Source: an uncultured Planctomycetia bacterium
Lineage (GTDB): Bacteria; Omnitrophota; Gorgyraeia; Tantalellales; Tantalellaceae
DNA: 25,643 bases
NCBI GenBank assembly: GCA_964388645.1
Contig: CAYMBK010000031.1
Location: 1 to 25,643 of the forward strand
Direction of reading: 5' to 3'
Shown here one piece after another: positions 208 to 17,795 of the stretch. The notes beneath the pieces are model-generated. The model ran no database searches. It saw nothing but the letters and a program-made list of their open reading frames with translations, and had not been told where the DNA came from. Made by a program: the position numbers and the translations under genes. Each line of letters starts with the position of its first letter. Within the stretch, counting starts at the first letter, position 1.

Positions 208-255
208 GCGATATTCTGGATAGCGTAAATCCATCCCCGAAGAAGCCGTAAAATT

Positions 256-2819: not shown

Positions 2820-2840
2820 GTTCCGCTCGAGTTTGGGGGG

Positions 2841-4415: not shown

Positions 4416-4443
4416 TTGTAAACCGGGAGAATCGTGGTATACT
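4416..4443 (+). promoter_or_regulatory. sigma70-like promoter for the TPR-peptidase gene
   Basis: TTGTAA (4416-4421), 16 nt spacer, TG-n-TATACT (4435-4443). Confidence 0.5.
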
Positions 4444-4519
4444 TATTTTTCGGGGATACTGACACGGGAAGTCTGAATAAGGAGTGTTTTCGCCTTTTGG
4501 GGGCGGGGTGATATTGGGC

Positions 4520-5713
4520 ATGAAGATAAGAGGTAGTTTTTTTTTGGTTTTTCCGGCGTTATTCCTGGAATTGTCATTGGCAGTGTTTTCCGCGCCCGAT
4601 GCGGCAGCATCTCAGCAGGCTGCGTATCAGCATAATAGCCGAGGCATTGAAAAGCTTCAGTCCGGTGATTATGCCGGGGCCATAGAGGATCTCAGGGCAG
4701 CCCACCGATATCTCCCGGCAAATGAGGACATTAAACGGAATCTGGGGATAGCTTATAACAACTACGCCTTCTATCTAAAAACAAAAGGGGTTTTGCGGGA
4801 AGCCATCATACAGTACAAAAACGCTCTCCAATACGATAGCGACAATCCGTACACATATTATAACCTTGGCCAGGCGTACTATTTAACGCAGGACATGCCC
4901 ATGGCCAGGCACGCTCTGGAAAAAGCTCATAAACTGGATCCCGGACTCGAAGGCCTCGAGGTTTTGCTTGCCAGGGTAAAAGGTGAAGCCACCGCGGAAA
5001 GCGGATTTGACAAGATAGAAACCATGCATTTCATAGTAGCGGCCGACAGGACGGTTCCGAGCGCTAAAATTTCTTATATACGCACACACCTGGAGGAGGC
5101 CTATGGAAGGGTGGGGATGATATTGGATCATTATCCGAGGCAAAAGACAATTGCCGTAATTTTCTCAGAGGATAGCTACGCTCATATGCTTAAAGGTATC
5201 CCTCCTTGGGCGCTTGCCGTATACGACGGCAAAGTCCGTATTCCCGCGGACAGGACCAGATATGGGTCTCGGGACGTCATAAAAATAATATACCATGAGT
5301 ATGCCCATGTAGTGGTGCGGGACATAACCCGGGGGAAATGCCCTGTCTGGCTTAATGAGGGTATAGCGGGCCTTTCGGAAAGCCTGGTAGAACCCCAAAA
5401 AAAGGAAGTTATTCGAAAGTACATAGAAAAATTGGGAGTAGTCCCCTTAAGGCGCATTCCTGAGAGTTTCGCGGATATTAAGCAGCGTGAAGTGATGACG
5501 CTTTTGTACATGCAGTCCTATCTTCTGGCGGAGTTCATTGTGAAAAAAGTGGGATATAGCGGGTTACGCGATATTTTAGATGAACTTGGCAGGGGAACTA
5601 CGATATGGGCCGCCATAAGCGGCGTTTCAGGCCAGAGTATGGCTGATTTTGAGAAAGACTGGGGCAGGGCTCTCGCTTCTGAATACGGGTGGAAGGGTAC
5701 TGTTTCACCATGA
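4520..5713 (+). CDS. exported TPR-repeat zinc metallopeptidase (peptidase MA-like/gluzincin domain)
   Basis: Hydrophobic signal-like N-terminus. TPR helices (AYNNYAFY...A...Y..AL..D; YYNLGQAYY). HEYAH at 5294 followed by PVWLNEGIA. First ATG is at 4520; the ORF track start at 4484 is TTG. Confidence 0.85.
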   Translation: MKIRGSFFLVFPALFLELSLAVFSAPDAAASQQAAYQHNSRGIEKLQSGDYAGAIEDLRAAHRYLPANEDIKRNLGIAYNNYAFYLKTKGVLREAIIQYKNALQYDSDNPYTYYNLGQAYYLTQDMPMARHALEKAHKLDPGLEGLEVLLARVKGEATAESGFDKIETMHFIVAADRTVPSAKISYIRTHLEEAYGRVGMILDHYPRQKTIAVIFSEDSYAHMLKGIPPWALAVYDGKVRIPADRTRYGSRDVIKIIYHEYAHVVVRDITRGKCPVWLNEGIAGLSESLVEPQKKEVIRKYIEKLGVVPLRRIPESFADIKQREVMTLLYMQSYLLAEFIVKKVGYSGLRDILDELGRGTTIWAAISGVSGQSMADFEKDWGRALASEYGWKGTVSP

Positions 5714-5736
5714 TGCAGTTTTAGGCACAGGAGTAC

Positions 5737-5764
5737 TTGACTTGCCGGGTTTAAAAGGTAAACT
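5737..5764 (+). promoter_or_regulatory. sigma70-like promoter for the FecR-domain gene
   Basis: TTGACT (5737-5742), 16 nt spacer, TAAACT (5759-5764). Confidence 0.4.
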
Positions 5765-5857
5765 ATATTCTGCGGCTCTGCTCAAAGTAGGGCAAGGTAG
5801 TTTTTTTGTGGTTTTCAGTGAAGGGATGTATATGTGCGCCAAGGGAAGGGAAGAGGG

Positions 5858-6700
5858 ATGAAGAAAATATTTTTTTTAGTTTTTTTAATATCGGTCCTGC
5901 ATTTTTGCGATGTTGTGGCAGAGCCCGAAAAGGCAACGGTTTTTTCCACTCAGGGAAAAGTAAGCATGATACCCAAAGGAAGCACTTCGTCCATCGAAGC
6001 TTATCCCGGGATGCAGCTTAACGAGGGCGACTGGATAAAGACAGATAAAGCGTCTTCTGTGGCGATATCGTTCAATGAAGAAGACAGCAATGTTGTAAGC
6101 GTAAAGGAAAATACTCTTGTTATACTCAAGCTTGACGGATATTTCAAGATACATCTTCTTTCCGGTGAGATATACGCTTTTTTAGAAAGCGTTGAGAAAG
6201 ATGAGTCTTTCAGAGTGCTCATGCCTTCGGTGGTCACGGAATCAGCAAGCAGCGGGTGGGGAGCTACTACTGACGGCAGTTATACCAATGTTATGGTCTT
6301 TGAAAATCAGGCTTTTATTTGTGGTATCAATATGGACGGTAGTGTCGATGATAAGAAGTTCTGGATAGACGAAGGTTTTCAGCGCAAGACCATAAAGTTC
6401 CAGGACCCCGGTGCGATCAGGCCTGTTCCTAAGGATGTCGCCACATGGTTCAAGGAACAGGTAGTCGCCCATCATCTCGAAAAGTCCCTCTCACGCGATA
6501 TTAAGACAAGCCCCCCGGTGCCTGCTTCCCCGGGAAGAACTGACAATAAAGGGCCCGCTAAAGATGTTGACGCCCAAAAGGAAGAGGACTTTAATGGGTC
6601 AGCCGGGCCGTCCCATCATGCTCCCGGTGTTTTTGTAACGGACGGAGAAGAGATCAATCTCGTGGAGTATCTTTACAGGGAGAGGCTCAGGCAGAGGTAA
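5858..6700 (+). CDS. exported FecR-domain protein
   Basis: Signal peptide MKKIFFLVFLISVLHFCDVVA. FecR-like pattern QGKV...GMQLNEGDWIKT...SSVAISF...SNVVSVKENT. GAGGG RBS before the ATG at 5858. Confidence 0.75.
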   Translation: MKKIFFLVFLISVLHFCDVVAEPEKATVFSTQGKVSMIPKGSTSSIEAYPGMQLNEGDWIKTDKASSVAISFNEEDSNVVSVKENTLVILKLDGYFKIHLLSGEIYAFLESVEKDESFRVLMPSVVTESASSGWGATTDGSYTNVMVFENQAFICGINMDGSVDDKKFWIDEGFQRKTIKFQDPGAIRPVPKDVATWFKEQVVAHHLEKSLSRDIKTSPPVPASPGRTDNKGPAKDVDAQKEEDFNGSAGPSHHAPGVFVTDGEEINLVEYLYRERLRQR

Positions 6701-6718
6701 TTCTTAAGAAGACCGTCT

Positions 6719-7492
6719 CTAGGGAAGCCATTCTTGCAGCGTCAGGTTCAACGGCCGCCGGATTATCCTGGGGTCATAGAAGTTCTTAACTCCCGCTCTT
6801 GTCCATTTGGTCATTTCATCTTCGATAGCTACCGTGCTGCTCGTTTCAAGCCCCTTTACGGAGGAATCGCTGTACACTATAAGGGTAGGCTCTTTGTAGC
6901 TTAGAAGGCTCTCTACTGTTTCCTTGAATTTTTCGGGGGAAGAAATGATGTGGGCTAGATGCGCGATAACGCATTTGTATTTTTTGCTTTTTCCGGCCCG
7001 CACCATTTCGGCTTCATCCTTGACGGTCTTGGTGTCATAGCCGTGTTTGTCAAAGATCCTGGATATTTTTTCGGTAACATGAGGAGAATCCGTCATAAGC
7101 AAGGCTTTGTTGCGGGTGAGGTCCTTAGCCGCCGAAACAAGATCCTGTTTTTCGACGGGTTTTGCCAGAAATCCATCGGCTCCGCAGGAAAGAAAAGTGT
7201 CAGACATACCGGATCTGCCGGAAACGACAAGAACAGGAAGATTCCGGGTGCTAGAGGCTGATCTCAGAGATTTGAATACGGAAAAACCGTCTAACTTGGG
7301 CAGAATAATGTCGAGTACGACAAGGTCGAATTTGTCTCTTTGCAGGAGCTTTATCGCCGTTTCCCCGTCCTCTGCCGGAATGACCGAAAATCCCCCGCTC
7401 TCAAGCATCGCTTTAGAAACATCCAGAAGATCCGAGTCATCCTCTACTAAAAGCACTCTTTTTGGGGGTTGATCTTTTGCGGGTATGTTCAT
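6719..7492 (-). CDS. response regulator: intact receiver plus degenerate second receiver, no output domain
   Basis: VLLVEDD, LVVLD61IILP, VVSG and LAKP conserved in domain 1. Domain 2 has the same layout with His178 at the phosphoacceptor position. Confidence 0.87.
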   Translation of the reverse strand: MNIPAKDQPPKRVLLVEDDSDLLDVSKAMLESGGFSVIPAEDGETAIKLLQRDKFDLVVLDIILPKLDGFSVFKSLRSASSTRNLPVLVVSGRSGMSDTFLSCGADGFLAKPVEKQDLVSAAKDLTRNKALLMTDSPHVTEKISRIFDKHGYDTKTVKDEAEMVRAGKSKKYKCVIAHLAHIISSPEKFKETVESLLSYKEPTLIVYSDSSVKGLETSSTVAIEDEMTKWTRAGVKNFYDPRIIRRPLNLTLQEWLP

Positions 7493-7636
7493 ATTCTTAT
7501 CCTTTCTTTCTCTAAACCCGGATCGTTAACAGCGTTTTTGACCATAAAAACCCGGGGGGCCGGTCAAAAGTTAGATATATTATTACCATGTGTAGGAAAA
7601 CGTGTCAATTCTTTTTGTGGATTACGAAGAAACCTC

Positions 7637-7665
7637 TTGCGCGTATCGGATCTATCTGCTACAAT
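7637..7665 (+). promoter_or_regulatory. promoter of the tRNA gene
   Basis: TTGCGC (7637-7642), 17 nt spacer, TG-n-TACAAT (7657-7665), 20 nt upstream of the tRNA. Confidence 0.7.
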
Positions 7666-7685
7666 CGTGTCCTTGAAGATAAGGA

Positions 7686-7760
7686 CGCGGGGTGGAGCAG
7701 AGGTAGCTCGTGAGGCTCATAACCTCAAGGTCGGAGGTTCGATTCCTCCCCCCGCAACCA
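7686..7760 (+). tRNA. initiator tRNA-fMet (CAT)
   Basis: Full cloverleaf: acceptor CGCGGGG/CCCCGCA with C1xA72 mismatch, A11-U24 pair, anticodon arm TGAGG-CTCATAA-CCTCA, T arm GGAGG-TTCGATT-CCTCC, encoded CCA. Confidence 0.98.
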
Positions 7761-7765
7761 GTATA

Positions 7766-7807
7766 AATAAAGCGGAGATAGTCATTTACGATTATCTCCG
7801 CTTTATT
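7766..7807 (+). terminator. intrinsic terminator-like hairpin after the tRNA
   Basis: AATAAAGCGGAGATAGTC / GATTATCTCCGCTTTATT form an 18-bp stem with one G-U pair and a 6-nt loop, followed by a T-rich tail. Confidence 0.75.
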
Positions 7808-7831
7808 CTTTAGGGCAGTCTTTACGGGCTG

Positions 7832-7850
7832 TGCTAACACTATGCTAACA
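7832..7850. repeat. tandem TGCTAACA direct repeat with 11-bp period
   Basis: TGCTAACA at 7832-7839 and 7843-7850, about 70 nt past the tRNA 3' end. Confidence 0.6.
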
Positions 7851-8011
7851 AAGTTGATCTAGGAGCCTTTCCGCAGGTCGTTCAAATATCTATTTTCGCC
7901 CCCGCCAAAGAAGAAGCTTTTTGAAATAGAACCGCCTCGGTCAAACCCACCTTGAGGGCATCAATTAAGCACAAACAAAAAACACCGCTTAAATTAAAAC
8001 GGTATAAATTC

Positions 8012-8040
8012 TTGAGCAATGCCCTTGCAAGAGCTATAAT
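8012..8040 (+). promoter_or_regulatory. sigma70-like promoter upstream of the small membrane-protein genes
   Basis: TTGAGC (8012-8017), 17 nt spacer, TATAAT (8035-8040). Confidence 0.5.
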
Positions 8041-8270
8041 CTGTTATGGTTATGAGGAAGTGGCCTGGTGGGAAGATGGGAAGCAGGCTCTTGATCATTA
8101 TCCAAGGCGATCTTACGCGGAACGGGGGATGTTGCCTTGTTTATTGTTTTATAAGAGGTTCCGGGGGGATTCAGCCTTGCGCTGATAATGTTTGTGATGA
8201 AGAGGGAAAAATAGCGCCGCTGTGATGAAAGTCGTCCGGGTTTGGAGCAACCGAAGACAAGGAGGCTTAT

Positions 8271-8561
8271 ATGCCGAAAGAAAACCTTAGTGATCTCTTT
8301 AAAGGGGTGAAGTGGTATGAGATAATTCTGTCGTGTTGGCCGCTTGTTCTAATGTTTATGGGGGGCGCGGTCGGGGGAGCGTGCGGAGCCGCAGCCTGCT
8401 ATTTTAATCTTCATTTGTTCAAGAAGGACATGAAGAGGCCTCTCAAATATTTATTTAGTGTTCTTATCGGCGCGGGCAGTGTTCTTTTGTATGCTATTAT
8501 TATATGGGTTCTTGCTGCTTTTTTCCCTGATCTATTTGCCGGGTCCGATGGGCAGGGTTAA
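8271..8561 (+). CDS. small hypothetical membrane protein (2-3 TM)
   Basis: AGGAGG RBS. 96 aa, hydrophobic, with a glycine-zipper-like MGGAVGGACGAAA stretch. Confidence 0.8.
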   Translation: MPKENLSDLFKGVKWYEIILSCWPLVLMFMGGAVGGACGAAACYFNLHLFKKDMKRPLKYLFSVLIGAGSVLLYAIIIWVLAAFFPDLFAGSDGQG

Positions 8562-8630
8562 TAGTTACTTGAGCGCGGTATGTAGATATTTTTTAAGAAG
8601 GTAAGTTCCTGCGATTGCGAGGAGGTTGTC

Positions 8631-8840
8631 ATGGAAGGATCTCTTGCTGTATTGATCATGGCATTGCTAGCGATATTCAGTTTATTTTTCTATTTTTTGC
8701 CGTCTATAGCGGGAAGGAGAAAAAGGAATGCCGGAGCGATCTTTATATTAAATTTGTTGCTTGGCTGGACTTTTATAGGATGGGTGGTAGCTTTAGTCTG
8801 GGCGCTATGCAAGGATCCTGAGCCTGTAAAACAGTGTTGA
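8631..8840 (+). CDS. superinfection immunity protein (phage T4 Imm-like family)
   Basis: AGGAGG RBS. Family signature YFLPSIA...N..AIFILNLLLGWTFIGWVVALVWA. Confidence 0.85.
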   Translation: MEGSLAVLIMALLAIFSLFFYFLPSIAGRRKRNAGAIFILNLLLGWTFIGWVVALVWALCKDPEPVKQC

Positions 8841-8875
8841 AACAATGCTGTCCGGAGAGAATCTAAAAAACCGCC

Positions 8876-9035
8876 CATTGAGAGGGATCGAAGCGACCGA
8901 AGCCCTTCGTTCTGTGGAAATATATATGGCTCAGGATTTCGGCAGACTTAGCCTGTAGCAGAAGCAATCTTTTGAAATGTTTGATTTTGCTGGGGATCGC
9001 TTCGTCACTCTTTTCAGCCGTTCCCCGCGATGACA
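8876..9035. repeat. inverted pair of degenerate REP-like elements
   Basis: CATTGAGAGGGATCGAAGCGACCGAAGC (+, from 8876) faces TGTCATCGCGGGGAACGGCTGAAAAGAGTGACGAAGCGATCCCC (-, 9035-8992). A GAAGCAATCT fragment sits at 8961-8970. Confidence 0.45.
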
Positions 9036-9246
9036 CCGTCAGGTCTAATTATCGATATAATTTTCACCCTATAAAAACGATTGACGCACTTGTTCTAAAA
9101 CCCCTGGTTTATGAGGCTCACAGGATACGGTTAGAGTCCAGATGATAGATTTCTTGTTTTTCCCGAACAGCATTGTTACAAAGTTGAAGATCATGGTATG
9201 GGAAACTCGCTTTTCTTTGTTAGAAACAAAAAAAGTTAAAATCCTC

Positions 9247-9276
9247 AAATAGTGTGATACAATGATCTCACTTTTT
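9247..9276 (+). promoter_or_regulatory. extended -10 promoter of the giant gene, overlapped by an inverted repeat
   Basis: TG-n-TACAAT (9255-9263). Arms AAATAGTGTGAT (9247-9258) and ATCTCACTTTTT (9265-9276) are complementary at 10/12 positions. Confidence 0.55.
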
Positions 9277-9382
9277 TGAAGCCGCCCTTAGGCGTTGAAG
9301 GGCACTATGCGTGGCAGGGCTACGTTCGCGGCAGAGAGAATGAGTAAGACATTGTTGATCGGGGCACATCTTTCGGAGGAGA

Positions 9383-12300
9383 ATGGTGAGATATTTTTTG
9401 GTGAATTACAGGGCATGTGTTAGGGCCATTGCTATCTGCGTTGCCGTGAGCTTTTTCTGCCAGAACGTCGTTTTGGCCGCGGGTACGGATATTCCGATGC
9501 CGGGCAATCTTCTTCCTTCTTCCGGGTTCAATTTCATAACGGGAACATCCGTTCCCGGTGAGTTCGAAGTGACGGCTTTTCTGAAATACTTGCAACATCG
9601 GATAGGGGTGTTACGGAAAAAATATCCGAAACGGTTTTTAACGCCCGAACTCATCAGGGATCTTCTGTCCGAACAATTCACTCAGGGTATTCCGGGATTT
9701 GACCCTCAAAAAATGTACCCACAGGGCAACGAACTGGTCATGCCCCTTTGGGATCGTGAGATACGCATATCCCTGCCCGATGGACGAACAAGGATCGATG
9801 GCGAGAGCGAACTGACCGTCTCGGAAGCGTCCCCGGCGAAAGACGAGCACGTCATGCGCAGCGGTCCTGGAAGCGGCCCGGACCACTTTAGGGGGGAGCC
9901 AAAGGATCGTGGTCCCCGAGAACGAATAAGGATGTACACCCATTTTACGGATGATCAGCTTATTGAAGAGATCGTAAAGACAAGGGATGAGTTTCTTGCC
10001 CGGAAAGACGAAGAGGGCTACTCACGAGAGACAGGCAAGACCCCGAATTTTAACCTTGCCGCGTTGAAAAAAACCAATCTCCGTCTTTACGACTATCTGC
10101 TCAACCACGACAAGAAGAATCTACTGCACCAGATACCATTTTTGCCGGGCAAGGAAGATCTCGAGACGGATATCGGCGGCGGTATGGAAGATCTCCCCGC
10201 CACATCTTCGGGCGCGGAGTGGTCTGCCTCTTTTGTCGAAGAAATATTTGACGGTGGATTTCTGACAGCAACAGAAAAAACGATCTTAACGCTTTTTTTC
10301 GGTCTGGGCGGGCAATGGTCAGCAAAAGCCCCGGTAATAGCCCGTGAACTCAACCTTACACGACAACGGATAGATCAGCTCAGAGAAAAGGCAATTGACA
10401 AGATAAGAAGGTGGATCGCCACGAGAGATCTGGCCATTTTCGGGTTTTCGCCGGGCGAAGCGGCTTGGATATTGTCCTTTTATCCGACCATGGATGGATT
10501 CGCTCAAAGAATATCCCGCGTGAGGAGGATGCTCAGGGTTTCTGATGATGCCGCTTCGTCTTTTACCCCGGAAGAAAGGAAAAACCTGGCCAGATCCGTT
10601 TTGGAAGAACCGTGGCCACCGGAGGCGAGGTCGTCTGAAAGAACGCGAAGGCCGAACGGCAGGGGCAGGTCCGCTTCCGCGCGTATCACGCCACTCGTCG
10701 CGATAACGGGCATCGCTATCGGCGCGGCTATCTTCCTGCCGGCGATATCCGCCGCCGCGCGAGGGCTTTATCATTATCTTGCATCCTCAGGTATCTCCGG
10801 GTTTTTGCCCGGAGGAGGTGAAGTGACGCTCATTTTAGGGTTGCCTCTTCTTGGATCCGTTTTTTCCGCGCGGGGCCCAGGCAACGAAGCGAGAAAAATT
10901 GAAGAGGCTCTGTCCGCCGTGCGCGATATGACCGCGGGGAGGGACGAATATGATCCCGCGGAAGGACGCAATCCAAAAGAACGGAAGATACTGGAGGTGT
11001 ACGGCGAGCTTCAGAGAGAGAAAGGAACCGGCTATGTACCTGATCTCACAGAATTGGCCGAACGGGCGGAGATCGGCACATCGACACTTAAGTCCCGTTT
11101 GTTCAGGATGAACCTGGACAGGAACGACAGGTATCTGAAAGCTCTTGTCTACAGAGGATCTGACCTTCCTCAAGTTGGAGGCAAAAGGGGTTACGCTTCA
11201 CTGGGCTGGATGGGAGAGGATCTGGGCTTTGTCTATTCTCCGTTCCTGCATGCCCCTGTACTTGAAGAACTTTTCAAGGTCGGTATACCGCTCGCTATTT
11301 TTAATATCCTGAGCTTTATTACTCCGGAACTGCCGGCTCTTAATCTTTCCGTTTTTGTATCCACGTCTGTGATCTTGGCTTTTGTTTTTCTTGCCGCGCA
11401 CCTTCTGAACGAGGATGGGCCTTACAGCGTAGACAGGCCGTTCTCCCTGGCGTCCGCGCAAATAAGAGCCGTGTTTTTACGGCACCCTCTCATGGCCGCT
11501 AAAAAAGTACATAAGACATGGCATTACATAAAAGTGACGAGGGGTACCCATTATCTGGCTTTCAACATCCTTGCGGCGCCGGCCTACTCGGCGGCATTCG
11601 GAATTTTGCTGTCACTGCCTTTTGTGGTGTTTCTGGGGCCTTCGGTTTTCAATATCATTCCGTTATTCCTGAGCATGCTTCTGCACTATTTTCAGAACCG
11701 CCGCATAAAAATGATAAACGAAAAAGAGAGGAGGACGATAAGGTATGCCTCTCTCCCGGGATGGGTTAAAATGGTCTTTCCTCATGGTAAAGAAGCGATC
11801 AGGACGATCTTCTCGAAAAATACAACATTCGGAACAACCGCTCATCCGCGCAGTCCTCAAAGGCTTGCCCGGTGGTCACCTTTTGAGGACGGAGTTCCGA
11901 TGGCATCGGATAGTTCCAGCCCCGACGGTATAAGGCCGCTTGGTGGCCCGGAAGAAGAAGCCGCGCGCGCCGCGTCCGGGAAAAAGCGATCTCTGGAAGA
12001 GTTGATCGCATCAGGCGATATCGCGAAGGGGACTTCGGAATACGTGTCTCCCGCGACAGCCAGGCAGACAATGGAAAAAGCGGGACAAGTACTCACGCGG
12101 GAAGAGGAACAAACTCTTTTTCGGGCACTTCATTCCGCGTGGAGGCCTGAGGACAAGCCGGTCAAACGCGCTGTTGTAGATATGATCGTCATGAAAAACC
12201 AGGGTTTGGTGTGGTCGGCCGTCAGAAAATTTGTGTATACCGAAGACAAGAATGTCATAGCCGATGCCGTTCAGGACGGGAACCTGGGTCTTCTGGAAGC

Positions 12301-15300
12301 CATACTGCGTTTCGGTTATGAGTTCAATCATAAGTTCTCGACTTACGCCTCGCACTGGATAAAAAAGTACATCAAGGAAGGATCGAAAATCATTACCGAA
12401 AGCATCCATATCCCGAGAAAGGAGGTGGAGAGATCGGACCGCTTGAAAAAATTTGTGGTATCGTTGCAAAATACGCTGGGCAGAGTTCCATGCGTCGATG
12501 AAATAGCGGAAAAGGCCGGCCTGGCAGTTAGTGAAGTTGTACGGCTTTTAGGAGTAAGGGCCATTCAGCCCGATTCTCTGTATGTGCCTGTAAAAAAGAC
12601 GCTGGGGTCGGGGAAGAAAACAGTTCACCTCGGAGACCTGATCGCCGGTTCCGGCGGTGTTCACTATCAGGAAGATATTTCAAGCAAAGAGGTACTTTCG
12701 TATCTTTTTGCCAGTCTGACATTCACACAGCGCGTTGTTGTCAAGATGAGAAACGGCATAGGCACAGTGAGGGACAAGAGGTACTCAGTTCGAGAGATAG
12801 GGAGCCTGATCGGCTGTAGCGGCGCGAATGTACACCTTATTGAAAAGGAGGCCCTAAGAGTTTTAGGTAGAGCTGTCTCCAGGAAGAAGGACAGCGAGGT
12901 CACGACCGAAGGGGTCGATAATACCGATGTTCATATTGCCGAGATATTACAGATCAGCCCTCTGAAACAAGGAGATCTCTTCGAGAAAGAGTTCCGGCGT
13001 ATCAGAGAGGAAAGGTTAAAGGATGAGAGGGCATCGGACGGAACAGATGACAGCGGGCTCACACTGGAGGAAGAGACACAAGCCCTTTCTTCCGTAAGCC
13101 ATGATCCTAAACGTCCGGTCAGCGTAAGAGGAACAATAGCGCGGGTGTTCGGAAAGGACGTGAAGCCGGGCGTTGTGGACATAGGTTCGCTGCACGGATC
13201 GTTCGTGAAGGATTTTCTGGACATGCACGGAGATGTGGTCGGCGAGATGATAGGGATAGACACGGTATACGACAGGAGCAGGATAACTGCCGATATTGCC
13301 GACGCCATGCATGAGGAAGGGATCTGGTCTGAATATGAACGTGCCTACTACGCCGGGGAAGAAAGCCCCCTTATGAGCGTGGACGAGGTAATGGGGGACC
13401 CGTCCAGAAAAGGAACTTTCGGCGTGGCCACCATTAACAAACCGCCGGGCGGAATGGATGATTTTAAGGCTATGGTAGATGAAGCCGTTTATTTGGGAGC
13501 GCGCCTGATATTTCTCGACGCTAACGCTCGAGATATTCAGGAAGAGGGTTTGGAATATCTTCGGAGCCTGGGATATGACATTGTTGAGATGCCTGGCAAG
13601 CCCGAAGATTACCCCGCCACGGAGCAGATGAGAGTGGTTGTGAGAGAAAGGTTCTTTGTTTGCGAAAGAAAGGTAGAGCCCGAGGAAATAAACCCCGAAG
13701 AGGTCCGCGTTGAGGGTCTGCCCGTAGTGTGGTCCGGCGGCAAAGACGGCTCCGGACGAGGGGTGGCCGGCGTCCAGATCGATGTGGGAAGTATTTCCGG
13801 GAATACCGTGAGAATGGCCGGCATTGTCGAAGCTTTGGCCAGTCTGGGGCGGAAAGCCCCCGGGCTTGTAATATTCCCGGAACAGATAGACGAAGACTAC
13901 ATGAGCTGGACGGATGAGATCGCGGGAAAAAGGAGAGAGATACTCAGACAGAAGGCCATAGCCACAGGTATAGCCATAGGTTACGGTATTGAGCATTTGC
14001 CCGGAGGGGACTATGAGAGAGGGAGTGTTTTCTACGAGATAGTAAAGCCCGTGGGATTGGGATCGGAACTGACCCGGTTCAGAAAATATGACTACGTGAA
14101 GGAGAACCGCCTGGTCGAGATAAACGGTACAAAGATCGCCGTTCTTATATGCGGAGAGGCCGAAGCCCTGCTGGCGCCGCGGTCGCGCGGCATCAGAACA
14201 GACAGTGATATCAGCCGGGCTGACCTGCTCATTGTCCCGTCCACAACGGATATGTGGTCCGCGAAGTTCTGGCCTGGCGCTTTGTTCGAAAAATACGGTG
14301 TTCCGGCAGCTTTTATCAACCGGGCCGACATAACGAACGCGGGCAACCCCTGGCACGACGGGTTTACGCCTTCACGATACCGGGAACCGCCTGATGAGGC
14401 AACTATTTTGAGCGCCGGAGAACAGATAATGATTTTAGCCCCCGGGTGTGTTTCGGACAATGTAACGGGAGATAAGGAAGCTATGGCCTCGGATCGGAGC
14501 GAACGCGAGGCGATAGAACGCGTTTCCTGCGCGCTGCGCAGCGTCCAACACAGCGGTTTAAGCGCCTTTGATATTGACGGTATGGCACACAGAGCGGTAA
14601 GCGCCATGGCCGAGGTGATCCTCTCGACGGAAAAGGACTTTCCGGTAATGTCAGGGAGGATGAAGGATCTTGCCGACGGCCTCGTGGAACGATCAAAGGC
14701 CTTTCGAGTAGAAAGAACAAGTTTTGACTCCGCTTCCGAAGACGGAGCATTGACCGCGGAGGCCGCCGAAGGATATGCCAGGGCGATAGCCGAATATGGA
14801 CAGGCCGTGCGGGATATCAGGACTGAGGCGGAAAAGCTTGTCTCGGATCCCGTAGAGCGGACCTATCCCGGTATCGAAGGGATAATGGGTTTATACCGAG
14901 AAGTATGGAAGGAGATGGATCGTCTTTCAGAAGCGGTCAAAAGCCGTTCTGAGCTTGCTTCCGGTACGGGGTCTACGGATCTGATCCCCGTATCTGAGGT
15001 GATCCGCCTGGTTGTAAGTGGAAGGCCGTACGTTACGATGGAGAACGAACTCGCGCCGGACGTCCTGCTCGAGGGTAACCGTTTGTCGTTTGCCGGAGCC
15101 GTGGCGAACATCGTCGACAATGCGGTGTTCTTTGCCGCGAAACGGCGGACAAACGACGGGACCCCGGCCTTTGTCACGATCACCCTGGCCGAGGAAAAAG
15201 GGAATATCAGGATAGATATAACCGATACAGGCGGAGGGATCTCACATGATCTGCTAGTAGCGGATTATGTAATGCAAAGGCCGAGATTTTTCAACCTTGA

Positions 15301-17737
15301 TGTTTCGCGCAGGGAAGGGGGAACGGGCCTTGGTGCCACCGAGGCCTGGTACGCCGTAAAGGATATGGAAGGCAGTATCAACGTCAGTTCCGCGCCCGGC
15401 GAGGGCACTACTTTCACTATCGGCGTGCCGATCGCCACGTCTATTCCGACCGAGGTTAAGGCGAAGTTCCATAAACCCGGCGGGCCGGGCCTGCCGCAAC
15501 TGGCGAAACTTCCGCCCGAGGCTGAAGCGACGTTCCGCAATTCCGGTGACACAATACCTGATTCGACGAAAGAGATAAGTAATGTGTTCCCGGAACTTCC
15601 AACACCCGATGCGGCAAGGGGTTCGGATGAAGTGAAACGTTCTCGTAGTACGATAGAGGATCTAAAACCGGAACGGACCGTGCGGATTTTAGATATAGGG
15701 AGCGGTACCGGTGCGGAGAGTCGCTGGGGGAGTGGTGCGTCGCATAGAGAAATCAAAGAGGTCGTCCGGAGAAGAACGGCAAAAGACGACGAAGAAGTAA
15801 GAGTTGAGCTTATTGGAATAGATAAAGACGCTGAAGAAGTTCGTCGAGGGAAAGCCCTTGGCTTTGATATCAGGGAGATGGACGCGCGAAAAAGCACCGG
15901 TTTCAAGGAAAAAAGTTTTGACCTTATAACCCGTTATAACCCTTCCACTACAAAAGATATCTTAGATATTCTGCCGGAAGTAAAAAGAGTTTTAAAGCCG
16001 GAAGGTGAATTTTGGGTTGCTCCCTGGCTTGAGGACTATGACGAATTTCTGAATGTATGGAGGAGGGATCCGAAATACCTACAGCACTATGTGGATGCGT
16101 TGGAGGCGAATGGTTTTTCAGCGGAAGTCATAGAAGAACATCGGCCTGATATGCCACCCGTACTTATTGTCGCCAGGCTGATACCGCACGTCCCGCTCGA
16201 GGTTCGCGCGAAAGCCCGGCGCGAAGGCGGTTTGCGCCTCGCAAAAATACCGCCCGAAGGAGATCAGGCATTCGAGCAGGAACAGGCAAAAGCGGTGATG
16301 ACGGAAGGCGCAAAGCCGCTTTTGCGCGATATCAAGACACAAAACAGAGGCGAGATCTATCCTCAATGCACCGCTTATTCGCATATAACCGCGGAGAAAT
16401 TCAGACAAATGGTCGAATGCTTGGCAGGCGGAAAAATAGGCGATGAAGAAGAAAAAGAGCTGGTAAGATTTGACAAAGTTTTAGAAGAACTGGAGCTTGT
16501 CAGGCAAAGGCTTAATGGAGGGCATTACAACAGATTATATCACTCGGTATCATGTTTCGAAGCCTCGAAAGAGACGATCGATGTCCTCAGCAGGAACGGT
16601 TTTTCATCCGTGCAATTGATAAGACGAAAATTCATCGACGACAAAATACCAAGCAAAATTTTCGGACCGGCCAGTGCCTTTTTGTACGGGTCATGGATAG
16701 ACGATGATGGGGATACGTATGCTCATTCATACGTGGTCGCCAGGATCGCCGGGGAGTACTTCGTAATAGACCTGTCGGCCGGACAGTTCCTGACGGAACA
16801 GTTATGGGACTACAAAGACCTCGGAATATTCATTGTTCCGATAAAAGACCTTGATGAGCATTCCTGGCCTTACGCGATGGGCGATGTGTTCCTCAACGAT
16901 AAAGAAGAGGCTCTAGAGCTTGTTAGCGGAGATGAGAAAGCTCTCGAAGCCATTATGAACCCACGGGGAACGGTGCCTGAGGGTGTTATGAGCTACGCGG
17001 CGGAATATTCAAATGAGCGGAATAACACTCCCGGGACACGGGTGCCGGACGATACGGATACCGAGGGCATGGCAGACCATGCCGCGCAGGATGATCCGGT
17101 AACGGAAACGCTTTCGTTGCCTCCTGCGTCGCGGGAACAGCCCGAGATGGAACTTATAAAGGAGCTTATACTAACAAGCGAGATCATCGCATCGGCTTCG
17201 CTCACGGGCGAACCGGTCATAGTGGGTATCGATACTAGCTGGGTGCCGGCCGAGCAGAGAGCTCTCGATTCTTTCGGGGCCATGCTAAGACAGCTCAAGG
17301 GTCTGCCGGCGAAGCTGGGAGCTCACCACATAACCATCTTGACGGCAAGCGATCCGGAGGTCCTGAGCGGGGAAATAGACCGGGTCATCAAAAAAAGAGA
17401 CAAGACTGTGAAAATGTCTAACATACTCCTCATAGGCCAGTTCGACGGTATAGACGGGTCAAAGAACACATCTTATGACAGGTTCAAGACGTCTCCGGAA
17501 GGCGAGAGCGCGTGTTTCGCGCATATTGTTGTTCCTGCGGTCAGTGCCGGAAAACATTATGACGTGGACATGCAGAGTATTCTCAGGCTGGCGCTCGCCG
17601 AACACAGGGCCATTCACCGGCAGGGAGGCAAGAGGTTTTTTTATCTGAATTTACCCGGTGCCGGACAGGACGGGTTAACTGTCAAAGAGCTTCATGATCG
17701 CCATAGAGCCAGGAACTATGCTCTAAAAATGGCCTAA
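9383..17737 (+). CDS. giant 2784-aa multidomain membrane-associated protein (sigma70, MTase, nitrilase-fold, HATPase and transglutaminase-like modules)
   Basis: 8355-nt uninterrupted ORF with GGAGGAG RBS. Signal-like N-terminus (RAIAICVAVSFFCQNVVLA-AG), hydrophobic TM block, and the domain motifs listed as separate features. Confidence 0.95.
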   Translation: MVRYFLVNYRACVRAIAICVAVSFFCQNVVLAAGTDIPMPGNLLPSSGFNFITGTSVPGEFEVTAFLKYLQHRIGVLRKKYPKRFLTPELIRDLLSEQFTQGIPGFDPQKMYPQGNELVMPLWDREIRISLPDGRTRIDGESELTVSEASPAKDEHVMRSGPGSGPDHFRGEPKDRGPRERIRMYTHFTDDQLIEEIVKTRDEFLARKDEEGYSRETGKTPNFNLAALKKTNLRLYDYLLNHDKKNLLHQIPFLPGKEDLETDIGGGMEDLPATSSGAEWSASFVEEIFDGGFLTATEKTILTLFFGLGGQWSAKAPVIARELNLTRQRIDQLREKAIDKIRRWIATRDLAIFGFSPGEAAWILSFYPTMDGFAQRISRVRRMLRVSDDAASSFTPEERKNLARSVLEEPWPPEARSSERTRRPNGRGRSASARITPLVAITGIAIGAAIFLPAISAAARGLYHYLASSGISGFLPGGGEVTLILGLPLLGSVFSARGPGNEARKIEEALSAVRDMTAGRDEYDPAEGRNPKERKILEVYGELQREKGTGYVPDLTELAERAEIGTSTLKSRLFRMNLDRNDRYLKALVYRGSDLPQVGGKRGYASLGWMGEDLGFVYSPFLHAPVLEELFKVGIPLAIFNILSFITPELPALNLSVFVSTSVILAFVFLAAHLLNEDGPYSVDRPFSLASAQIRAVFLRHPLMAAKKVHKTWHYIKVTRGTHYLAFNILAAPAYSAAFGILLSLPFVVFLGPSVFNIIPLFLSMLLHYFQNRRIKMINEKERRTIRYASLPGWVKMVFPHGKEAIRTIFSKNTTFGTTAHPRSPQRLARWSPFEDGVPMASDSSSPDGIRPLGGPEEEAARAASGKKRSLEELIASGDIAKGTSEYVSPATARQTMEKAGQVLTREEEQTLFRALHSAWRPEDKPVKRAVVDMIVMKNQGLVWSAVRKFVYTEDKNVIADAVQDGNLGLLEAILRFGYEFNHKFSTYASHWIKKYIKEGSKIITESIHIPRKEVERSDRLKKFVVSLQNTLGRVPCVDEIAEKAGLAVSEVVRLLGVRAIQPDSLYVPVKKTLGSGKKTVHLGDLIAGSGGVHYQEDISSKEVLSYLFASLTFTQRVVVKMRNGIGTVRDKRYSVREIGSLIGCSGANVHLIEKEALRVLGRAVSRKKDSEVTTEGVDNTDVHIAEILQISPLKQGDLFEKEFRRIREERLKDERASDGTDDSGLTLEEETQALSSVSHDPKRPVSVRGTIARVFGKDVKPGVVDIGSLHGSFVKDFLDMHGDVVGEMIGIDTVYDRSRITADIADAMHEEGIWSEYERAYYAGEESPLMSVDEVMGDPSRKGTFGVATINKPPGGMDDFKAMVDEAVYLGARLIFLDANARDIQEEGLEYLRSLGYDIVEMPGKPEDYPATEQMRVVVRERFFVCERKVEPEEINPEEVRVEGLPVVWSGGKDGSGRGVAGVQIDVGSISGNTVRMAGIVEALASLGRKAPGLVIFPEQIDEDYMSWTDEIAGKRREILRQKAIATGIAIGYGIEHLPGGDYERGSVFYEIVKPVGLGSELTRFRKYDYVKENRLVEINGTKIAVLICGEAEALLAPRSRGIRTDSDISRADLLIVPSTTDMWSAKFWPGALFEKYGVPAAFINRADITNAGNPWHDGFTPSRYREPPDEATILSAGEQIMILAPGCVSDNVTGDKEAMASDRSEREAIERVSCALRSVQHSGLSAFDIDGMAHRAVSAMAEVILSTEKDFPVMSGRMKDLADGLVERSKAFRVERTSFDSASEDGALTAEAAEGYARAIAEYGQAVRDIRTEAEKLVSDPVERTYPGIEGIMGLYREVWKEMDRLSEAVKSRSELASGTGSTDLIPVSEVIRLVVSGRPYVTMENELAPDVLLEGNRLSFAGAVANIVDNAVFFAAKRRTNDGTPAFVTITLAEEKGNIRIDITDTGGGISHDLLVADYVMQRPRFFNLDVSRREGGTGLGATEAWYAVKDMEGSINVSSAPGEGTTFTIGVPIATSIPTEVKAKFHKPGGPGLPQLAKLPPEAEATFRNSGDTIPDSTKEISNVFPELPTPDAARGSDEVKRSRSTIEDLKPERTVRILDIGSGTGAESRWGSGASHREIKEVVRRRTAKDDEEVRVELIGIDKDAEEVRRGKALGFDIREMDARKSTGFKEKSFDLITRYNPSTTKDILDILPEVKRVLKPEGEFWVAPWLEDYDEFLNVWRRDPKYLQHYVDALEANGFSAEVIEEHRPDMPPVLIVARLIPHVPLEVRAKARREGGLRLAKIPPEGDQAFEQEQAKAVMTEGAKPLLRDIKTQNRGEIYPQCTAYSHITAEKFRQMVECLAGGKIGDEEEKELVRFDKVLEELELVRQRLNGGHYNRLYHSVSCFEASKETIDVLSRNGFSSVQLIRRKFIDDKIPSKIFGPASAFLYGSWIDDDGDTYAHSYVVARIAGEYFVIDLSAGQFLTEQLWDYKDLGIFIVPIKDLDEHSWPYAMGDVFLNDKEEALELVSGDEKALEAIMNPRGTVPEGVMSYAAEYSNERNNTPGTRVPDDTDTEGMADHAAQDDPVTETLSLPPASREQPEMELIKELILTSEIIASASLTGEPVIVGIDTSWVPAEQRALDSFGAMLRQLKGLPAKLGAHHITILTASDPEVLSGEIDRVIKKRDKTVKMSNILLIGQFDGIDGSKNTSYDRFKTSPEGESACFAHIVVPAVSAGKHYDVDMQSILRLALAEHRAIHRQGGKRFFYLNLPGAGQDGLTVKELHDRHRARNYALKMA
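10262..10410 (+). other. domain in giant protein: isolated sigma70 region 4 HTH
   Basis: LTATEKTILTLFFGL...IARELNLTRQRIDQLREKAIDKIR matches the L..RE..VL.LRFGL...EIG..L.LTRERVRQI...AL.KLR pattern. Confidence 0.8.
12050..12870 (+). other. domain in giant protein: RpoD/RpoS-like sigma70 core (regions 1.2, 2, 3, 4)
   Basis: LTREEEQTL (1.2); KNQGLVWSAVRKF...DAVQDGNLGLLEAILRF...KFSTYASHWIKKYI (2); IHIP...LGRVPCVDEIAEKAG (3); LTFTQRVVVKMRNGI...YSVREIGSLIG...IEKEALRVL (4). Confidence 0.9.
13150..13640 (+). other. domain in giant protein: divergent class I SAM-methyltransferase-like fold
   Basis: VVDIGSLHG (motif I variant), MIGID (motif II), later GTFGVATINKP. Confidence 0.5.
13763..14440 (+). other. 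domain in giant protein: nitrilase/carbon-nitrogen hydrolase fold
   Basis: VAGVQ...LVIFPE1500...FRK1568Y...GTKIAVLIC1590GE...ADLLIVPS; the E-K-C triad is present. Confidence 0.8.
14483..15430 (+). other. domain in giant protein: histidine-kinase-like helical region plus HATPase_c
   Basis: N box ANIVDNA, G1 DTGGGI, F box RFF, G2 GTGLG, terminal GSINVSSAPGEGTTFTI. Possible H-box GMAH at 14579-14590. Confidence 0.85.
15680..16175 (+). other. domain in giant protein: class I SAM-dependent methyltransferase
   Basis: VRILDIGSGTG, LIGID, EMDAR...FKEKSFDLIT, LPEVKRVLKPEG. Confidence 0.88.
16500..16900 (+). other. domain in giant protein: transglutaminase/papain-like Cys-His-Asp domain
   Basis: SC2391FEAS..TIDVLSRNG, AH2448SYVV, VID2463LSAGQF, with the order and spacing typical of this fold. 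Confidence 0.6.
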
Positions 17738-17767: not shown

Positions 17768-17795
17768 GACGATCGGCCGTTCGTCCGGTTTTTTT
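17768..17795 (+). terminator. possible weak intrinsic terminator after the giant gene
   Basis: GACGA/TCGTC stem followed 3 nt later by a T7 tract. The stem is short. Confidence 0.35.

What the first reader, a model, noticed from the sequence alone, without database searches (positions are those of the whole stretch)
9383..17737. Giant export-signal protein carrying a cargo train of cytoplasmic enzymes and a whole sigma factor
Seen, in order: signal-like N-terminus, sigma region 4, two hydrophobic segments, HTH, four hydrophobic segments, sigma70 core, MTase-like fold, nitrilase fold, kinase ATPase, MTase, Cys-His-Asp domain, C-terminal alpha/beta domain. Known: these modules act on DNA/RNA polymerase, SAM and ATP, which are cytoplasmic. 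Very large proteins are reported in Omnitrophota, proposed to be host-associated or predatory, and MARTX toxins set a precedent for multi-effector polyproteins. Inference: a modular effector polyprotein delivered into or anchored at a host or prey cell to rewire transcription, signalling and metabolism. I know no characterised protein with this architecture.
Basis: partly seen in the sequence, partly recalled or inferred. Interest (0 to 1): 0.93.

Follow-up and report, generated by a model that had tools for sequence, protein, structure and literature searches.

The report
Sigma factor inside Omnitrophota modular protein
A real 2,784-residue gene of an uncultured Omnitrophota bacterium strings an export-type leader, membrane helices, a complete sigma factor and several cytoplasm-type enzymes between two conserved end domains; it belongs to a large undescribed family, and it is small enough to test at the bench whether such enzyme trains sit inside or outside the cell.

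Summary
ORF 9383-17737 (+) is intact, with a GGAGG site before the start and a terminator-like hairpin after the stop. Two metagenome runs tile it without conflict. Ten of the twelve listed modules were confirmed by HMM, profile, fold, language-model or motif evidence. The HTH is untested. The Cys-His-Asp call is only a lead.

New here:
- The four-helix block carries the three motifs of CPBP/PrsW-type intramembrane proteases.
- The leader plus N-domain and the C-terminal alpha/beta "cap" define a family. It has 537 cluster representatives, and the cap was at the extreme C-terminus in all 150 listed.
- 48 of 54 genomes of the window's own Omnitrophota family carry 1-12 copies, with shuffled cargo.
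- Sigma modules and an RNA polymerase alpha-CTD recur in relatives.

The effector reading is only partly supported. The predicted shared ends with differing cargo exist, and the leader looks like a cleavable Sec signal. But the charge distribution places the sigma-to-cap train on the producer's cytoplasmic side (K+R in/out 13/5 or 18/0, against 3/18 if exported). No secretion genes flank the gene.

Best reading: a membrane-anchored, cytoplasm-facing regulatory and enzymatic scaffold. Localisation remains unresolved.

This scan has already noted sigma modules and the same conserved-ends family in other Omnitrophota genomes. The two preprints I searched do not mention sigma.

The parts
9375..9379 (+). 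Shine-Dalgarno-like GGAGG just upstream of the ATG at 9383
   Evidence: read directly from the sequence
9383..9481 (+). Sec-type leader, aa 1-33: Arg-rich n-region, hydrophobic core, VLA|AG
   Evidence: hydropathy; conserved in paralogues C79 and C266; about 80% of full-length-looking family members have it, with consensus K/R..FL.N[DN].S[FY]A
9482..9817 (+). Family N-domain, aa 34-145: LLPSSGF motif, then helices matching the family pattern FxEDAxFxYLxxLI...GLKxLI
   Evidence: 47-50% identity to paralogue C79; family alignments; no Pfam, NCBIfam or PDB-sequence match
10151..10441 (+). Extra sigma region 3.2/4-like domain, aa 257-353
   Evidence: Pfam Sigma70_r4 at 294-342; about 30% identity to the C-terminal ~100 aa of RpoD in nearly every genome of the family
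10688..10870 (+). Hydrophobic pair H1 (436-460) and H2 (480-496), preceded by an Arg-rich stretch at 420-434
   Evidence: both segments are conserved in paralogue C79
11045..11101 (+). HTH-like stretch, aa 555-573 (unverified)
   Evidence: seen by eye only; no HMM hit
11225..11707 (+). Four-helix block with CPBP/PrsW-type intramembrane protease motifs: E628-E629-x-x-K, F669-x3-H673, H768-x3-N772
   Evidence: the FxxxH and HxxxN His/Asn are invariant and the EE pair nearly so in 7 homologous blocks from other long ORFs; one homologue hits PF02517 at 1.8e-5 and another PrsW at 0.054; hhalign against canonical CPBPs of the clade aligns the three motifs in order, but P is only 0.019
12065..12886 (+). 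Complete sigma-70 module, regions 1.2-4.2, aa 895-1168
   Evidence: Pfam r2 and r4, weak r3; NCBIfam RpoD_Cterm 2.3e-30; colinear alignment with the genome's own RpoD; YASHWI replaces YATWWI and SGANVHLIE replaces TRERVRQIE
13088..13657 (+). Probable class I SAM-methyltransferase-like module, aa ~1236-1425
   Evidence: language-model neighbours are all class I MTases at 0.94; no HMM hit; AF2 pLDDT low; no homologue in 54 family genomes
13691..14368 (+). Nitrilase-superfamily (CN-hydrolase) module, aa 1437-1662, with E1500, K1568, C1590 and E1592
   Evidence: alignment A2; profile against PDB sequences hits 9wpn at 1.5e-3 and 5kha at 2.5e-3; 4 of 8 members hit PF00795; AF2 plus Foldseek gives 5e-11 and TM 0.67 to 2w1v
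14489..15445 (+). Histidine-kinase-like module, aa 1703-2021: helical part with invariant H1723, then HATPase_c N, G1 and G2 boxes
   Evidence: Pfam HATPase_c 1.7e-14; alignment with 5 homologous modules; 46% identity to paralogue C220
15473..15535 (+). Linker copy 1, aa 2031-2051, before the MTase module
15653..16168 (+). Class I SAM methyltransferase, aa ~2091-2262, with motif I DIGSGTG
   Evidence: Pfam Methyltransf_11 at 26.2 bits, cut-off 21.2
16220..16273 (+). Linker copy 2, aa 2280-2297, after the MTase module
16367..16897 (+). Candidate papain/transglutaminase-like Cys-His-Asp module, aa ~2329-2505 (C2391, H2448, D2463)
   Evidence: the single homologue, G068:C104, keeps Cys and His and has Glu for Asp; language-model lead at 0.88-0.90; AF2 model poor
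17126..17737 (+). Family C-terminal cap, aa 2582-2784, with the GIDTSWxPxxQ motif, plus the stop codon
   Evidence: A4; 537 representatives, and the cap is at the extreme C-terminus in all 150 listed; AF2 pLDDT 90-97 for a three-layer alpha/beta fold; best structural matches are weak (Z <= 6.7), several of them VWA/MIDAS domains; language-model lead to VWA at 0.84
17771..17790 (+). Terminator-like hairpin plus T-run after the stop codon

Best explanation
The gene encodes a mid-sized member of an Omnitrophota-specific family of modular long proteins.

Shown:
- The family is defined by a Sec-type leader plus a ~100-aa N-domain at one end and a ~200-aa alpha/beta cap at the other.
- Between the two ends lie protein-sized modules that are shuffled, duplicated and replaced from genome to genome.
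- This member carries, in order: an extra sigma region-4 domain, a pair of hydrophobic helices, a four-helix block with CPBP/PrsW-type protease motifs, a flexible ~120-aa linker, a complete sigma-70 module, an MTase-like module, a nitrilase-superfamily amidase or hydrolase with an intact E-K-C-E tetrad, a histidine-kinase-like module, a SAM methyltransferase, and a possible papain-like module.

Inferred:
- The protein is inserted in the producer's inner membrane and residues ~771-2784 lie on the cytoplasmic face. There ATP, SAM and RNA polymerase are available.
- It therefore works as a membrane-tethered regulatory and enzymatic scaffold that holds a sigma factor at the membrane.

Speculative:
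- The sigma module, or other modules, may be freed by proteolysis in the linkers, possibly by the adjacent intramembrane protease block. This would resemble regulated proteolysis of anti-sigma or pro-sigma factors.
For: Identity and family:
- Paralogue fragments share only the N-terminus (C79, C266), or the HK module plus cap (C220).
- The same modules occur in other long ORFs of the family in other orders and copy numbers. Examples are three nitrilase modules plus cap in G007:C3 and two HK modules plus cap in G007:C32.
- The cap profile finds 537 representatives, and the cap is C-terminal in all 150 listed. 48 of 54 family genomes carry 1-12 copies.
- The leader and N-domain are conserved across 82 members.
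- The clade is Omnitrophota by record titles.

Cytoplasmic train:
- K+R in 15-aa flanks, inside/outside, is 13/5 for leader plus five helices and 18/0 for six helices without a leader. It is 3/18 for the exported-train topology.
- All three protease motifs lie at the K/R-rich face.
- Family-wide, the outer flanks of helix hairpins have 21% K+R, against 11% in the loops and 14% background. The flank after the last helix holds 103 K+R against 61 before it.
- A stand-alone cap gene has no leader.
- Other sigma-bearing relatives exist: P0025, P0112, and G052:C14 with two canonical sigma modules. G017:C4 carries an RNA polymerase alpha-CTD.
- The Nielsen & Lui 2026 preprint (10.64898/2026.06.07.730766) reads MTase plus HATPase_c 'Module 1' giants as compatible with inner-membrane anchoring and a cytoplasmic face.

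Gene integrity.
Against: - The N-terminus looks like a cleavable Sec signal, and its c-region obeys the SPase I rule across the family.
- With the leader and all six later helices, the train would be outside.
- If the leader works, either H2 is not a membrane helix, or the sigma-4-like domain and an Arg-rich stretch are periplasmic. Both are awkward.
- Some family members have the leader and no other hydrophobic segment, yet carry PAS-GAF-HisKA-HATPase_c-REC or MTases. By the standard rules those proteins would be wholly exported.
- My helix and charge counts are crude hydropathy rules, not a trained predictor.
- Sigma-protease adjacency is not conserved in the other sigma-bearing relatives, so release by the neighbouring block is unsupported.
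- The region 4.2 recognition helix and one melting Trp are replaced, so promoter-directed activity is uncertain.
- No expression data were available.
Confidence: 0.5

Rival explanations
1. Exported effector polyprotein. The Sec leader launches the chain. The conserved N-domain and C-cap serve secretion or delivery. The variable middle is cargo that acts in or on a prey or host cell, and a Cys-protease-like module may cut it up. The logic is MARTX-like.
For: - The leader is canonical-looking and has a conserved SPase I site.
- The ends are conserved and the cargo is variable.
- Some members have the leader only and still carry cytoplasm-type domains.
- The family is multi-copy, with tandem arrays and fast turnover. 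No orthologue was found in three genomes of the same genus.
- The language-model neighbours of the Cys-His-Asp module include papain-fold toxin families.
- The genome has SecA, an SPase I fragment and two secretins.
- Both preprints report many Omnitrophota giants predicted as signal peptide plus TM, or extracellular.
Against: - The exported-train topology puts 18 of 21 flanking K/R outside. The family-wide charge bias points the same way.
- Six or seven hydrophobic helices would arrest a Sec substrate in the producer's membrane.
- Pfam found no RTX repeats and no C80 CPD at E <= 1, and no T1SS or other secretion genes lie in the window.
- The Cys-His-Asp module is not a family feature: one homologue in 54 genomes, and it is absent from paralogue C220.
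- A stand-alone cap gene has no leader.
Confidence: 0.27
2. Cytoplasmic polyprotein precursor. The chain is made at the membrane and then cut at the linkers into free proteins (a free sigma factor, a kinase, methyltransferases, an amidase). The fusion would be a way of co-expressing parts, not a working scaffold.
For: - Modules are separated by long linkers rich in Gly, Ser, Pro or acidic residues.
- 'ASD' occurs four times, three of them in linkers, against 0.98 expected (P = 0.017).
- Two candidate protease modules are on board.
- A repeated linker brackets the MTase module.
- Earlier notes of this scan on other Omnitrophota giants propose cutting at repeated junction motifs.
Against: - No cleavage site is known.
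- The [SA]SPL junction motif reported elsewhere in this scan is absent here.
- The protease assignments are weak.
- No proteomic evidence is available.
Confidence: 0.2
3. Conflict or defence protein. A fast-evolving multi-domain sensor and effector of an anti-phage or inter-bacterial system, with a sigma-like module as in MzaA.
For: - PADLOC MzaA 5.7e-15 and mad2 1.2e-7; NCBIfam MzaA 1.1e-21.
- Rapid turnover and module shuffling.
Against: - The MzaA matches cover only the generic sigma-70 part (model positions 438-660), and housekeeping RpoD models score better.
- The mad2 match is the generic MTase fold.
- No partner genes of those systems are in the window.
Confidence: 0.05
4. Artefact: a chimeric assembly, or several genes fused by sequencing errors.
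For: - The genome is a fragmented MAG (272 contigs, 76% complete).
- Depth is only 3-8.
Against: - The frame is open for 8.35 kb, with a ribosome-binding site and a terminator.
- Contigs from two runs match at 100% identity and bridge several module junctions, with no joints or loose ends.
- The ORF has the family's N- and C-terminal domains at its two ends.
- Relatives have equally long intact ORFs on contigs of up to 127 kb.
Confidence: 0.03

Closest known systems
Very long multi-enzyme, membrane-associated proteins of Omnitrophota: West-Roberts et al. 2023 preprint (10.1101/2023.11.21.568195); Nielsen & Lui 2026 preprint (10.64898/2026.06.07.730766), 'class 1' and Pfam 'Module 1'
   Same: Same phylum. 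A signal peptide and/or TM helices. Many unrelated cytoplasm-type enzyme domains in one chain, including the PF08241 plus PF02518 pair. Sequence-unique and modular. The same unresolved inside/outside question.
   Different: At 2,784 aa it lies far below their 10,000-aa catalogue threshold. Neither text contains the word 'sigma'. In the passages I read, neither describes a family defined by a shared leader/N-domain and C-terminal cap.
MARTX toxins
   Same: Conserved ends, swappable internal modules, and a possible internal Cys protease.
   Different: Pfam found no RTX or glycine-rich repeats and no C80 CPD at E <= 1. No T1SS genes are nearby. This protein has a Sec-type leader and internal TM helices instead. 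Its cargo is housekeeping-type regulators and enzymes.
Membrane-controlled sigma factors: pro-sigma-K/SpoIVFB, RsiW cleaved by PrsW and RasP, and ECF sigmas with fused transmembrane extensions (from my own knowledge)
   Same: A sigma-70-family domain is held at the membrane next to, or under the control of, an intramembrane metalloprotease-type element.
   Different: Here the sigma is group 1/2-like in layout (r1.2-r4), not ECF. It is covalently embedded in a 2,784-aa multi-enzyme chain. No anti-sigma domain was recognised. Proteolytic release is untested.
CPBP / Rce1-like / PrsW intramembrane proteases (Pfam PF02517, PF13367)
   Same: The three motifs occur in order in consecutive membrane helices: EExxK (PrsW-like), FxxxH, HxxxN. 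They are conserved in 7 homologous blocks.
   Different: This protein gives no Pfam hit. Motif 1-2 spacing is longer and there is a 47-aa insert. Profile-profile support is weak.
Nitrilase superfamily amidases (Nit2, AmiF, Nesterenkonia amidase)
   Same: Same fold and the same E-K-C-E catalytic tetrad.
   Different: Only 14-18% identity. It is embedded as a module, and it occurs in up to three tandem copies in a relative. The substrate is unknown.

Membership tests
Sigma-70 family | Region 2 (core binding and -10 recognition) detectable | tested here: met
   PF04542 at 34.7 bits, cut-off 24, aa 936-998; DGNLGLLEA and KFSTYASHWI align with the genome's own RpoD
Sigma-70 family | Regions 3 and 4 colinear after region 2 | tested here: met
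   PF04545 is above its cut-off. PF04539 is below its cut-off (17.4 against 25.3). NCBIfam RpoD_Cterm covers aa 934-1168 at 2.3e-30.
Sigma-70 family | Canonical promoter-contact residues: the Trp pair of region 2.3 and the R-E-R..RQ helix of region 4.2 | tested here: not met
   YASHWI replaces YATWWI and SGANVHLIE replaces TRERVRQIE. The sigma modules of the G052 giant keep the canonical residues.
Nitrilase / CN-hydrolase superfamily | Alpha-beta-beta-alpha sandwich fold | tested here: met
   AF2 pLDDT 80-93 over the module; Foldseek 5.2e-11, TM 0.67 to 2w1v
Nitrilase / CN-hydrolase superfamily | Catalytic Glu-Lys-Cys plus second Glu | tested here: met
   E1500, K1568, C1590 and E1592 are invariant in 8 sequences
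Histidine kinase | HATPase_c with N, G1 and G2 boxes | tested here: met
   PF02518 at 54.6 bits; the boxes are conserved in 6 modules
Histidine kinase | HisKA-type dimerisation domain with a phospho-accepting His | tested here: inconclusive
   No HisKA hit. One invariant His (H1723, motif RSxxH) lies in a helical stretch ~190 aa before the N box.
Class I SAM methyltransferase (aa ~2091-2262) | Pfam model above its cut-off and motif I GxGxG | tested here: met
   PF08241 at 26.2 bits, cut-off 21.2; motif DIGSGTG
CPBP / Rce1-like intramembrane protease | EExxxR/K, FxxxH and HxxxN motifs in successive TM helices | tested here: met
   E628/E629/K632, F669/H673 and H768/N772, conserved in A1
CPBP / Rce1-like intramembrane protease | Significant match to the family model | tested here: inconclusive
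   No hit for this protein. A homologue scores 20.3 bits against a cut-off of 22.4, E = 1.8e-5 as an isolated segment. hhalign P = 0.019.
MARTX-type effector polyprotein | RTX/glycine-rich terminal repeats, a C80 autoprocessing domain, and an adjacent T1SS | tested here: not met
   No such Pfam hits at E <= 1. The neighbours are pur genes, peptidases, a response regulator and an STT3-like protein.
Omnitrophota long multi-enzyme membrane proteins (Nielsen & Lui class 1) | Omnitrophota genome; signal peptide and/or TM helices; many distinct enzyme Pfams in one chain | tested here: met
Omnitrophota long multi-enzyme membrane proteins (Nielsen & Lui class 1) | Length of at least 10,000 aa (their catalogue threshold) | tested here: not met
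   2,784 aa
Sec/SPase I signal peptide | Positive n-region, 7-15 aa h-region, and small residues at -3 and -1 | tested here: met
   By inspection of P0001 and of 82 aligned family N-termini. No trained predictor was available.
Sec/SPase I signal peptide | Actual translocation and cleavage | not testable with these tools
   Needs N-terminal proteomics or reporter fusions.
VWA/MIDAS domain (C-terminal cap) | VWA fold with a DxSxS...T...D metal site | tested here: inconclusive
   The confident alpha/beta model has only weak matches (Z 5.0-5.8 to Rea1/MDN1 MIDAS, Z 5.3 to p34). Foldseek gives no hit at E <= 0.001. Only D-T-S of the motif is present.

The most novel reading that the evidence does not exclude
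The leader/N-domain plus C-cap family is a Sec-launched system of modular effector polyproteins. Through it, predatory or epibiotic Omnitrophota would place sigma factors, RNA polymerase alpha-CTD modules, kinases, methyltransferases and amidases outside their own cytoplasm, at or in a prey cell. That would make it a new delivery class with MARTX-like logic but unrelated parts.
Probability: 0.25. Interest if true: 0.92.

Novelty: new variant of a known kind. Interest (0 to 1): 0.66.

Why it matters
Omnitrophota are known for enormous multi-enzyme genes, but nobody knows whether the enzyme trains work inside the cell, in the periplasm or in prey, or whether they are cut into pieces. The giants themselves are too large to handle.

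This 8.4-kb gene has the same design at a clonable size. It also belongs to a family whose two conserved ends give a handle for finding all members.

It carries an easily assayed passenger, a complete sigma factor. Topology reporters, RNA polymerase binding assays and cleavage mapping on this one protein could therefore answer the general question.

If sigma factors, and an alpha-CTD in relatives, really work while tethered to such chains, that would be a new way of organising transcription control. If they are exported, it would be a new class of effector.

Tried and rejected
- Word-indexed homologue searches, on the whole protein and on residues 2230-2784, found only the protein itself. The family was reached through genome searches and a profile search instead.
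- Pfam and NCBIfam on the isolated unknown pieces gave nothing.
- The N-domain profile found nothing credible among PDB sequences.
- The CPBP profile against PDB sequences gave no Rce1 hit. hhalign gave only weak support. I therefore file the block as 'motifs met, model match inconclusive'.
- AF2 modelled the first MTase-like module and the Cys-His-Asp module poorly, so there is no fold evidence for either.
- The cap model has no convincing structural relative in PDB or AFDB clusters.
- Apparent Cys-His-Asp homologues P0069 and P0104 turned out to be spill-over from the cap alignment.
- The idea that sigma modules are always paired with a protease block was rejected. Other sigma-bearing relatives lack it.
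- The [SA]SPL junction motif reported for other giants in this scan is absent here.
- The MzaA and mad2 defence matches cover only generic sigma and MTase folds.
- Short 'stand-alone' caps are mostly contig-end fragments. Only P0108 is clearly a separate gene.
- 'TM' calls at ~residue 80 in P0025 and P0112 are the amphipathic helix of the N-domain, not membrane helices.
Full report
**The gene.** The window is a whole 25.6-kb contig (C31) of a fragmented MAG: 1.41 Mb, 272 contigs, 76% complete. ORF 9383-17737 on the + strand is open for 2,784 codons. GGAGG lies just before the ATG, and a hairpin with a T-run follows the stop. Downstream lie purB, purM, purD, purE and a phosphotyrosine phosphatase. 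Upstream lie tRNA-Met, a response regulator, a FecR-like protein, a TPR peptidase, an S41 peptidase and an STT3-like protein. No secretion genes flank the gene.

Logan contigs of two metagenome runs (aquatic, freshwater sediment) match at 100% identity. They show no joints or loose ends, and single pieces bridge the sigma/MTase-like junction and the nitrilase/kinase/MTase junctions. Depth is only 3-8, the piece boundaries in the two runs are nearly the same, and some short gaps are not bridged by the listed pieces. I see no sign of a chimera, but long reads are still wanted.

**The modules.** HMMs confirm four calls:
- sigma region 4 at 294-342;
- sigma-70 regions 2-4 at 925-1168, colinear with RpoD from region 1.2 on;
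- HATPase_c at 1905-2017;
- a class I methyltransferase at 2141-2211.

The first region-4 domain is a true sigma fragment. Residues 257-353 align with the last ~100 residues of the housekeeping RpoD of nearly every genome of the family.

The 'nitrilase fold' is right. Seven homologous modules from other long ORFs share invariant FPE, K and LICxE motifs. Their profile finds CN-hydrolases among PDB sequences, and four of the eight members hit PF00795. The AF2 model matches Nit2 and amidases at 5e-11.

The first 'MTase-like' module has no HMM hit and no good model. Its language-model neighbours are uniformly class I methyltransferases at 0.94.

The kinase module has one invariant His, H1723, in its helical part. 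This is not the His that a sister note proposed.

The Cys-His-Asp module has a single homologue, which keeps Cys and His and has Glu for Asp. Its papain/transglutaminase-like language-model neighbours are a lead only.

The sigma module has His for one of the two melting Trp and a rewritten region 4.2 helix. Two sigma modules inside a giant ORF of another family of the class are canonical.

**A new call: the four-helix block.** Residues ~615-775 recur in long ORFs of six other genomes. In seven copies the FxxxH and HxxxN residues are invariant and the acidic pair of the AP-x-x-EE-x-x-K motif is conserved in all but one. Each motif lies in a hydrophobic helix. This is the motif set of CPBP/Rce1-like and PrsW intramembrane metalloproteases. 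One homologue hits PF02517 at 1.8e-5 and another hits PrsW at 0.054. hhalign against canonical CPBPs of the clade aligns the three motifs in order, but only at P = 0.019. I treat this as probable, not proven.

**The family.**
- The genome holds fragments of paralogues. C79 and C266 share only the N-terminal ~140 residues. C220 shares the kinase module joined directly to the C-terminal domain.
- No orthologue exists in three genomes of the same genus. The modules do turn up, in other orders and numbers, in long ORFs across the family.
- A profile of the C-terminal domain finds 537 cluster representatives among 1.84 billion proteins. In all 150 listed, the domain ends at the last residues of proteins of up to 6,685 aa.
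- 48 of 54 genomes of the family have 1-12 copies, some in tandem arrays.
- About 80% of full-length-looking members begin with the same leader: K/R, a 12-14-residue hydrophobic core, then N[DN]xS[FY]A. A conserved ~100-aa domain follows.
- Record titles place the family in Candidatus Omnitrophota.
- Neither end matches Pfam, NCBIfam or PDB sequences.
- The cap folds confidently (pLDDT 90-97) into a three-layer alpha/beta domain. Its structural matches are weak and include several VWA/MIDAS domains.
- Cargo in relatives includes PAS-GAF-HisKA-HATPase_c-REC, HEAT repeats, M20 peptidase, protein kinase, RNA polymerase alpha-CTD, guanylate kinase, methyltransferases and further sigma modules.

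**Inside or outside?** This is the crux, and the evidence conflicts.

For export:
- The leader obeys the rules of a cleavable Sec signal, and its cleavage-site pattern is conserved.
- Some members have the leader and no other hydrophobic segment, yet carry a complete hybrid kinase.

For a cytoplasmic train in this protein, I counted K+R in 15-residue flanks, inside/outside:
- 13/5 with the leader plus five helices;
- 18/0 with six helices and no functional leader;
- 3/18 if the leader and all six helices are used and the train is outside.

The three protease motifs all sit at the K/R-rich face. Across the family, the outer flanks of helix hairpins carry 21% K+R, against 11% in the hairpin loops and 14% background. 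The flank after the last helix holds 103 K+R against 61 before it. One cap occurs as a separate gene without a leader.

The domain chemistry (ATP, SAM, RNA polymerase) also argues for the cytoplasm. The genome has SecA, SPase I and two secretins, so export is possible but not indicated. I put about two in three on a cytoplasmic train for this protein. My topology rules are crude.

**Mechanism.** My best reading is a membrane-anchored, cytoplasm-facing scaffold. It tethers a sigma factor by a ~120-residue flexible linker next to a protease-like membrane block, and it carries a kinase-like ATPase, two methyltransferases and an amidase. Release of parts by proteolysis is plausible: the linkers are long, 'ASD' occurs four times against one expected, and two candidate proteases are on board. 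It is untested, however. The sigma-protease pairing is not conserved, and the junction motif reported elsewhere in this scan is absent here. A repeated linker brackets the second methyltransferase, and paralogue C220 lacks that module. This suggests cassette gain or loss by recombination between linkers.

**Comparison and novelty.** Two preprints describe Omnitrophota giants as multi-enzyme, mostly membrane-associated proteins. They record the MTase plus HATPase_c combination and the same localisation puzzle. Neither text mentions sigma factors. This protein lies below their size threshold.

This scan has already noted sigma modules in Omnitrophota giants and the same conserved-ends family on other genomes: 54 notes in at least 44 genomes. 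Within the scan this is therefore a repeat. Its particular value is its small size, its complete ends and the protease-like block.

I class it as a new variant of a known kind.

Noticed in passing
L035 (G052:C14) 1-9576: A 5'-open ORF of more than 3,192 aa in another family of the same class. It carries two canonical sigma-70 modules (regions 1.2-4, with intact TRERVRQIE) and a PrmA-like methyltransferase.
   Followed up: partly
L036 (G017:C4) 2357-11050: A 2,898-aa cap-family protein with a Ser/Thr protein kinase domain, an acyltransferase and an RNA polymerase alpha-subunit C-terminal domain.
   Followed up: partly
P0091 (cap-family representative, 1,680 aa): It has a Sec-type leader and no other hydrophobic segment, yet carries a complete PAS-GAF-HisKA-HATPase_c-REC hybrid kinase before the cap. 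By the usual rules it would be wholly exported, which makes no sense for a kinase.
   Followed up: partly
L040 (G007:C3) 3324-9293 and L041 (G007:C32) 2225-6232: The first protein has three tandem nitrilase-like modules plus the cap. The second has two tandem kinase-like modules plus the cap. This shows module duplication within the family.
   Followed up: partly
G012:C24, about 29-40 kb: Four cap-bearing genes of ~900-1,300 aa lie in a row, forming a tandem array of family members.
   Followed up: no
window 15473-15535 and 16220-16273: Two copies of a linker, (K/R)AK..GG..L.LAK[LI]PPE...AF, bracket the second methyltransferase module. Paralogue C220 joins the kinase module directly to the cap.
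   Followed up: partly
window 11903-11911, 13031-13039, 14486-14494, 17345-17353: The tripeptide ASD occurs four times, three of them in inter-module linkers. Shuffles give 0.98 (P = 0.017).
   Followed up: partly
window 7686-7760 and 8271-8840: tRNA-Met (CAT). Two small ORFs, 8271-8561 and 8631-8840, encode very hydrophobic peptides in the otherwise gene-poor 1.5 kb before the big gene.
   Followed up: no
genome G000, contigs C170, C62, C63, C137, C100 and others: Many contigs are filled end to end by open frames of 1,000-3,960 aa that run off the contig. The genome holds several much larger genes that broke the assembly.
   Followed up: no
P0108 (214 aa; ENA contig of 1,481 bp): The cap domain occurs as a separate gene with no leader. 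It starts 9 bp after a divergently oriented PEMT-like gene.
   Followed up: partly
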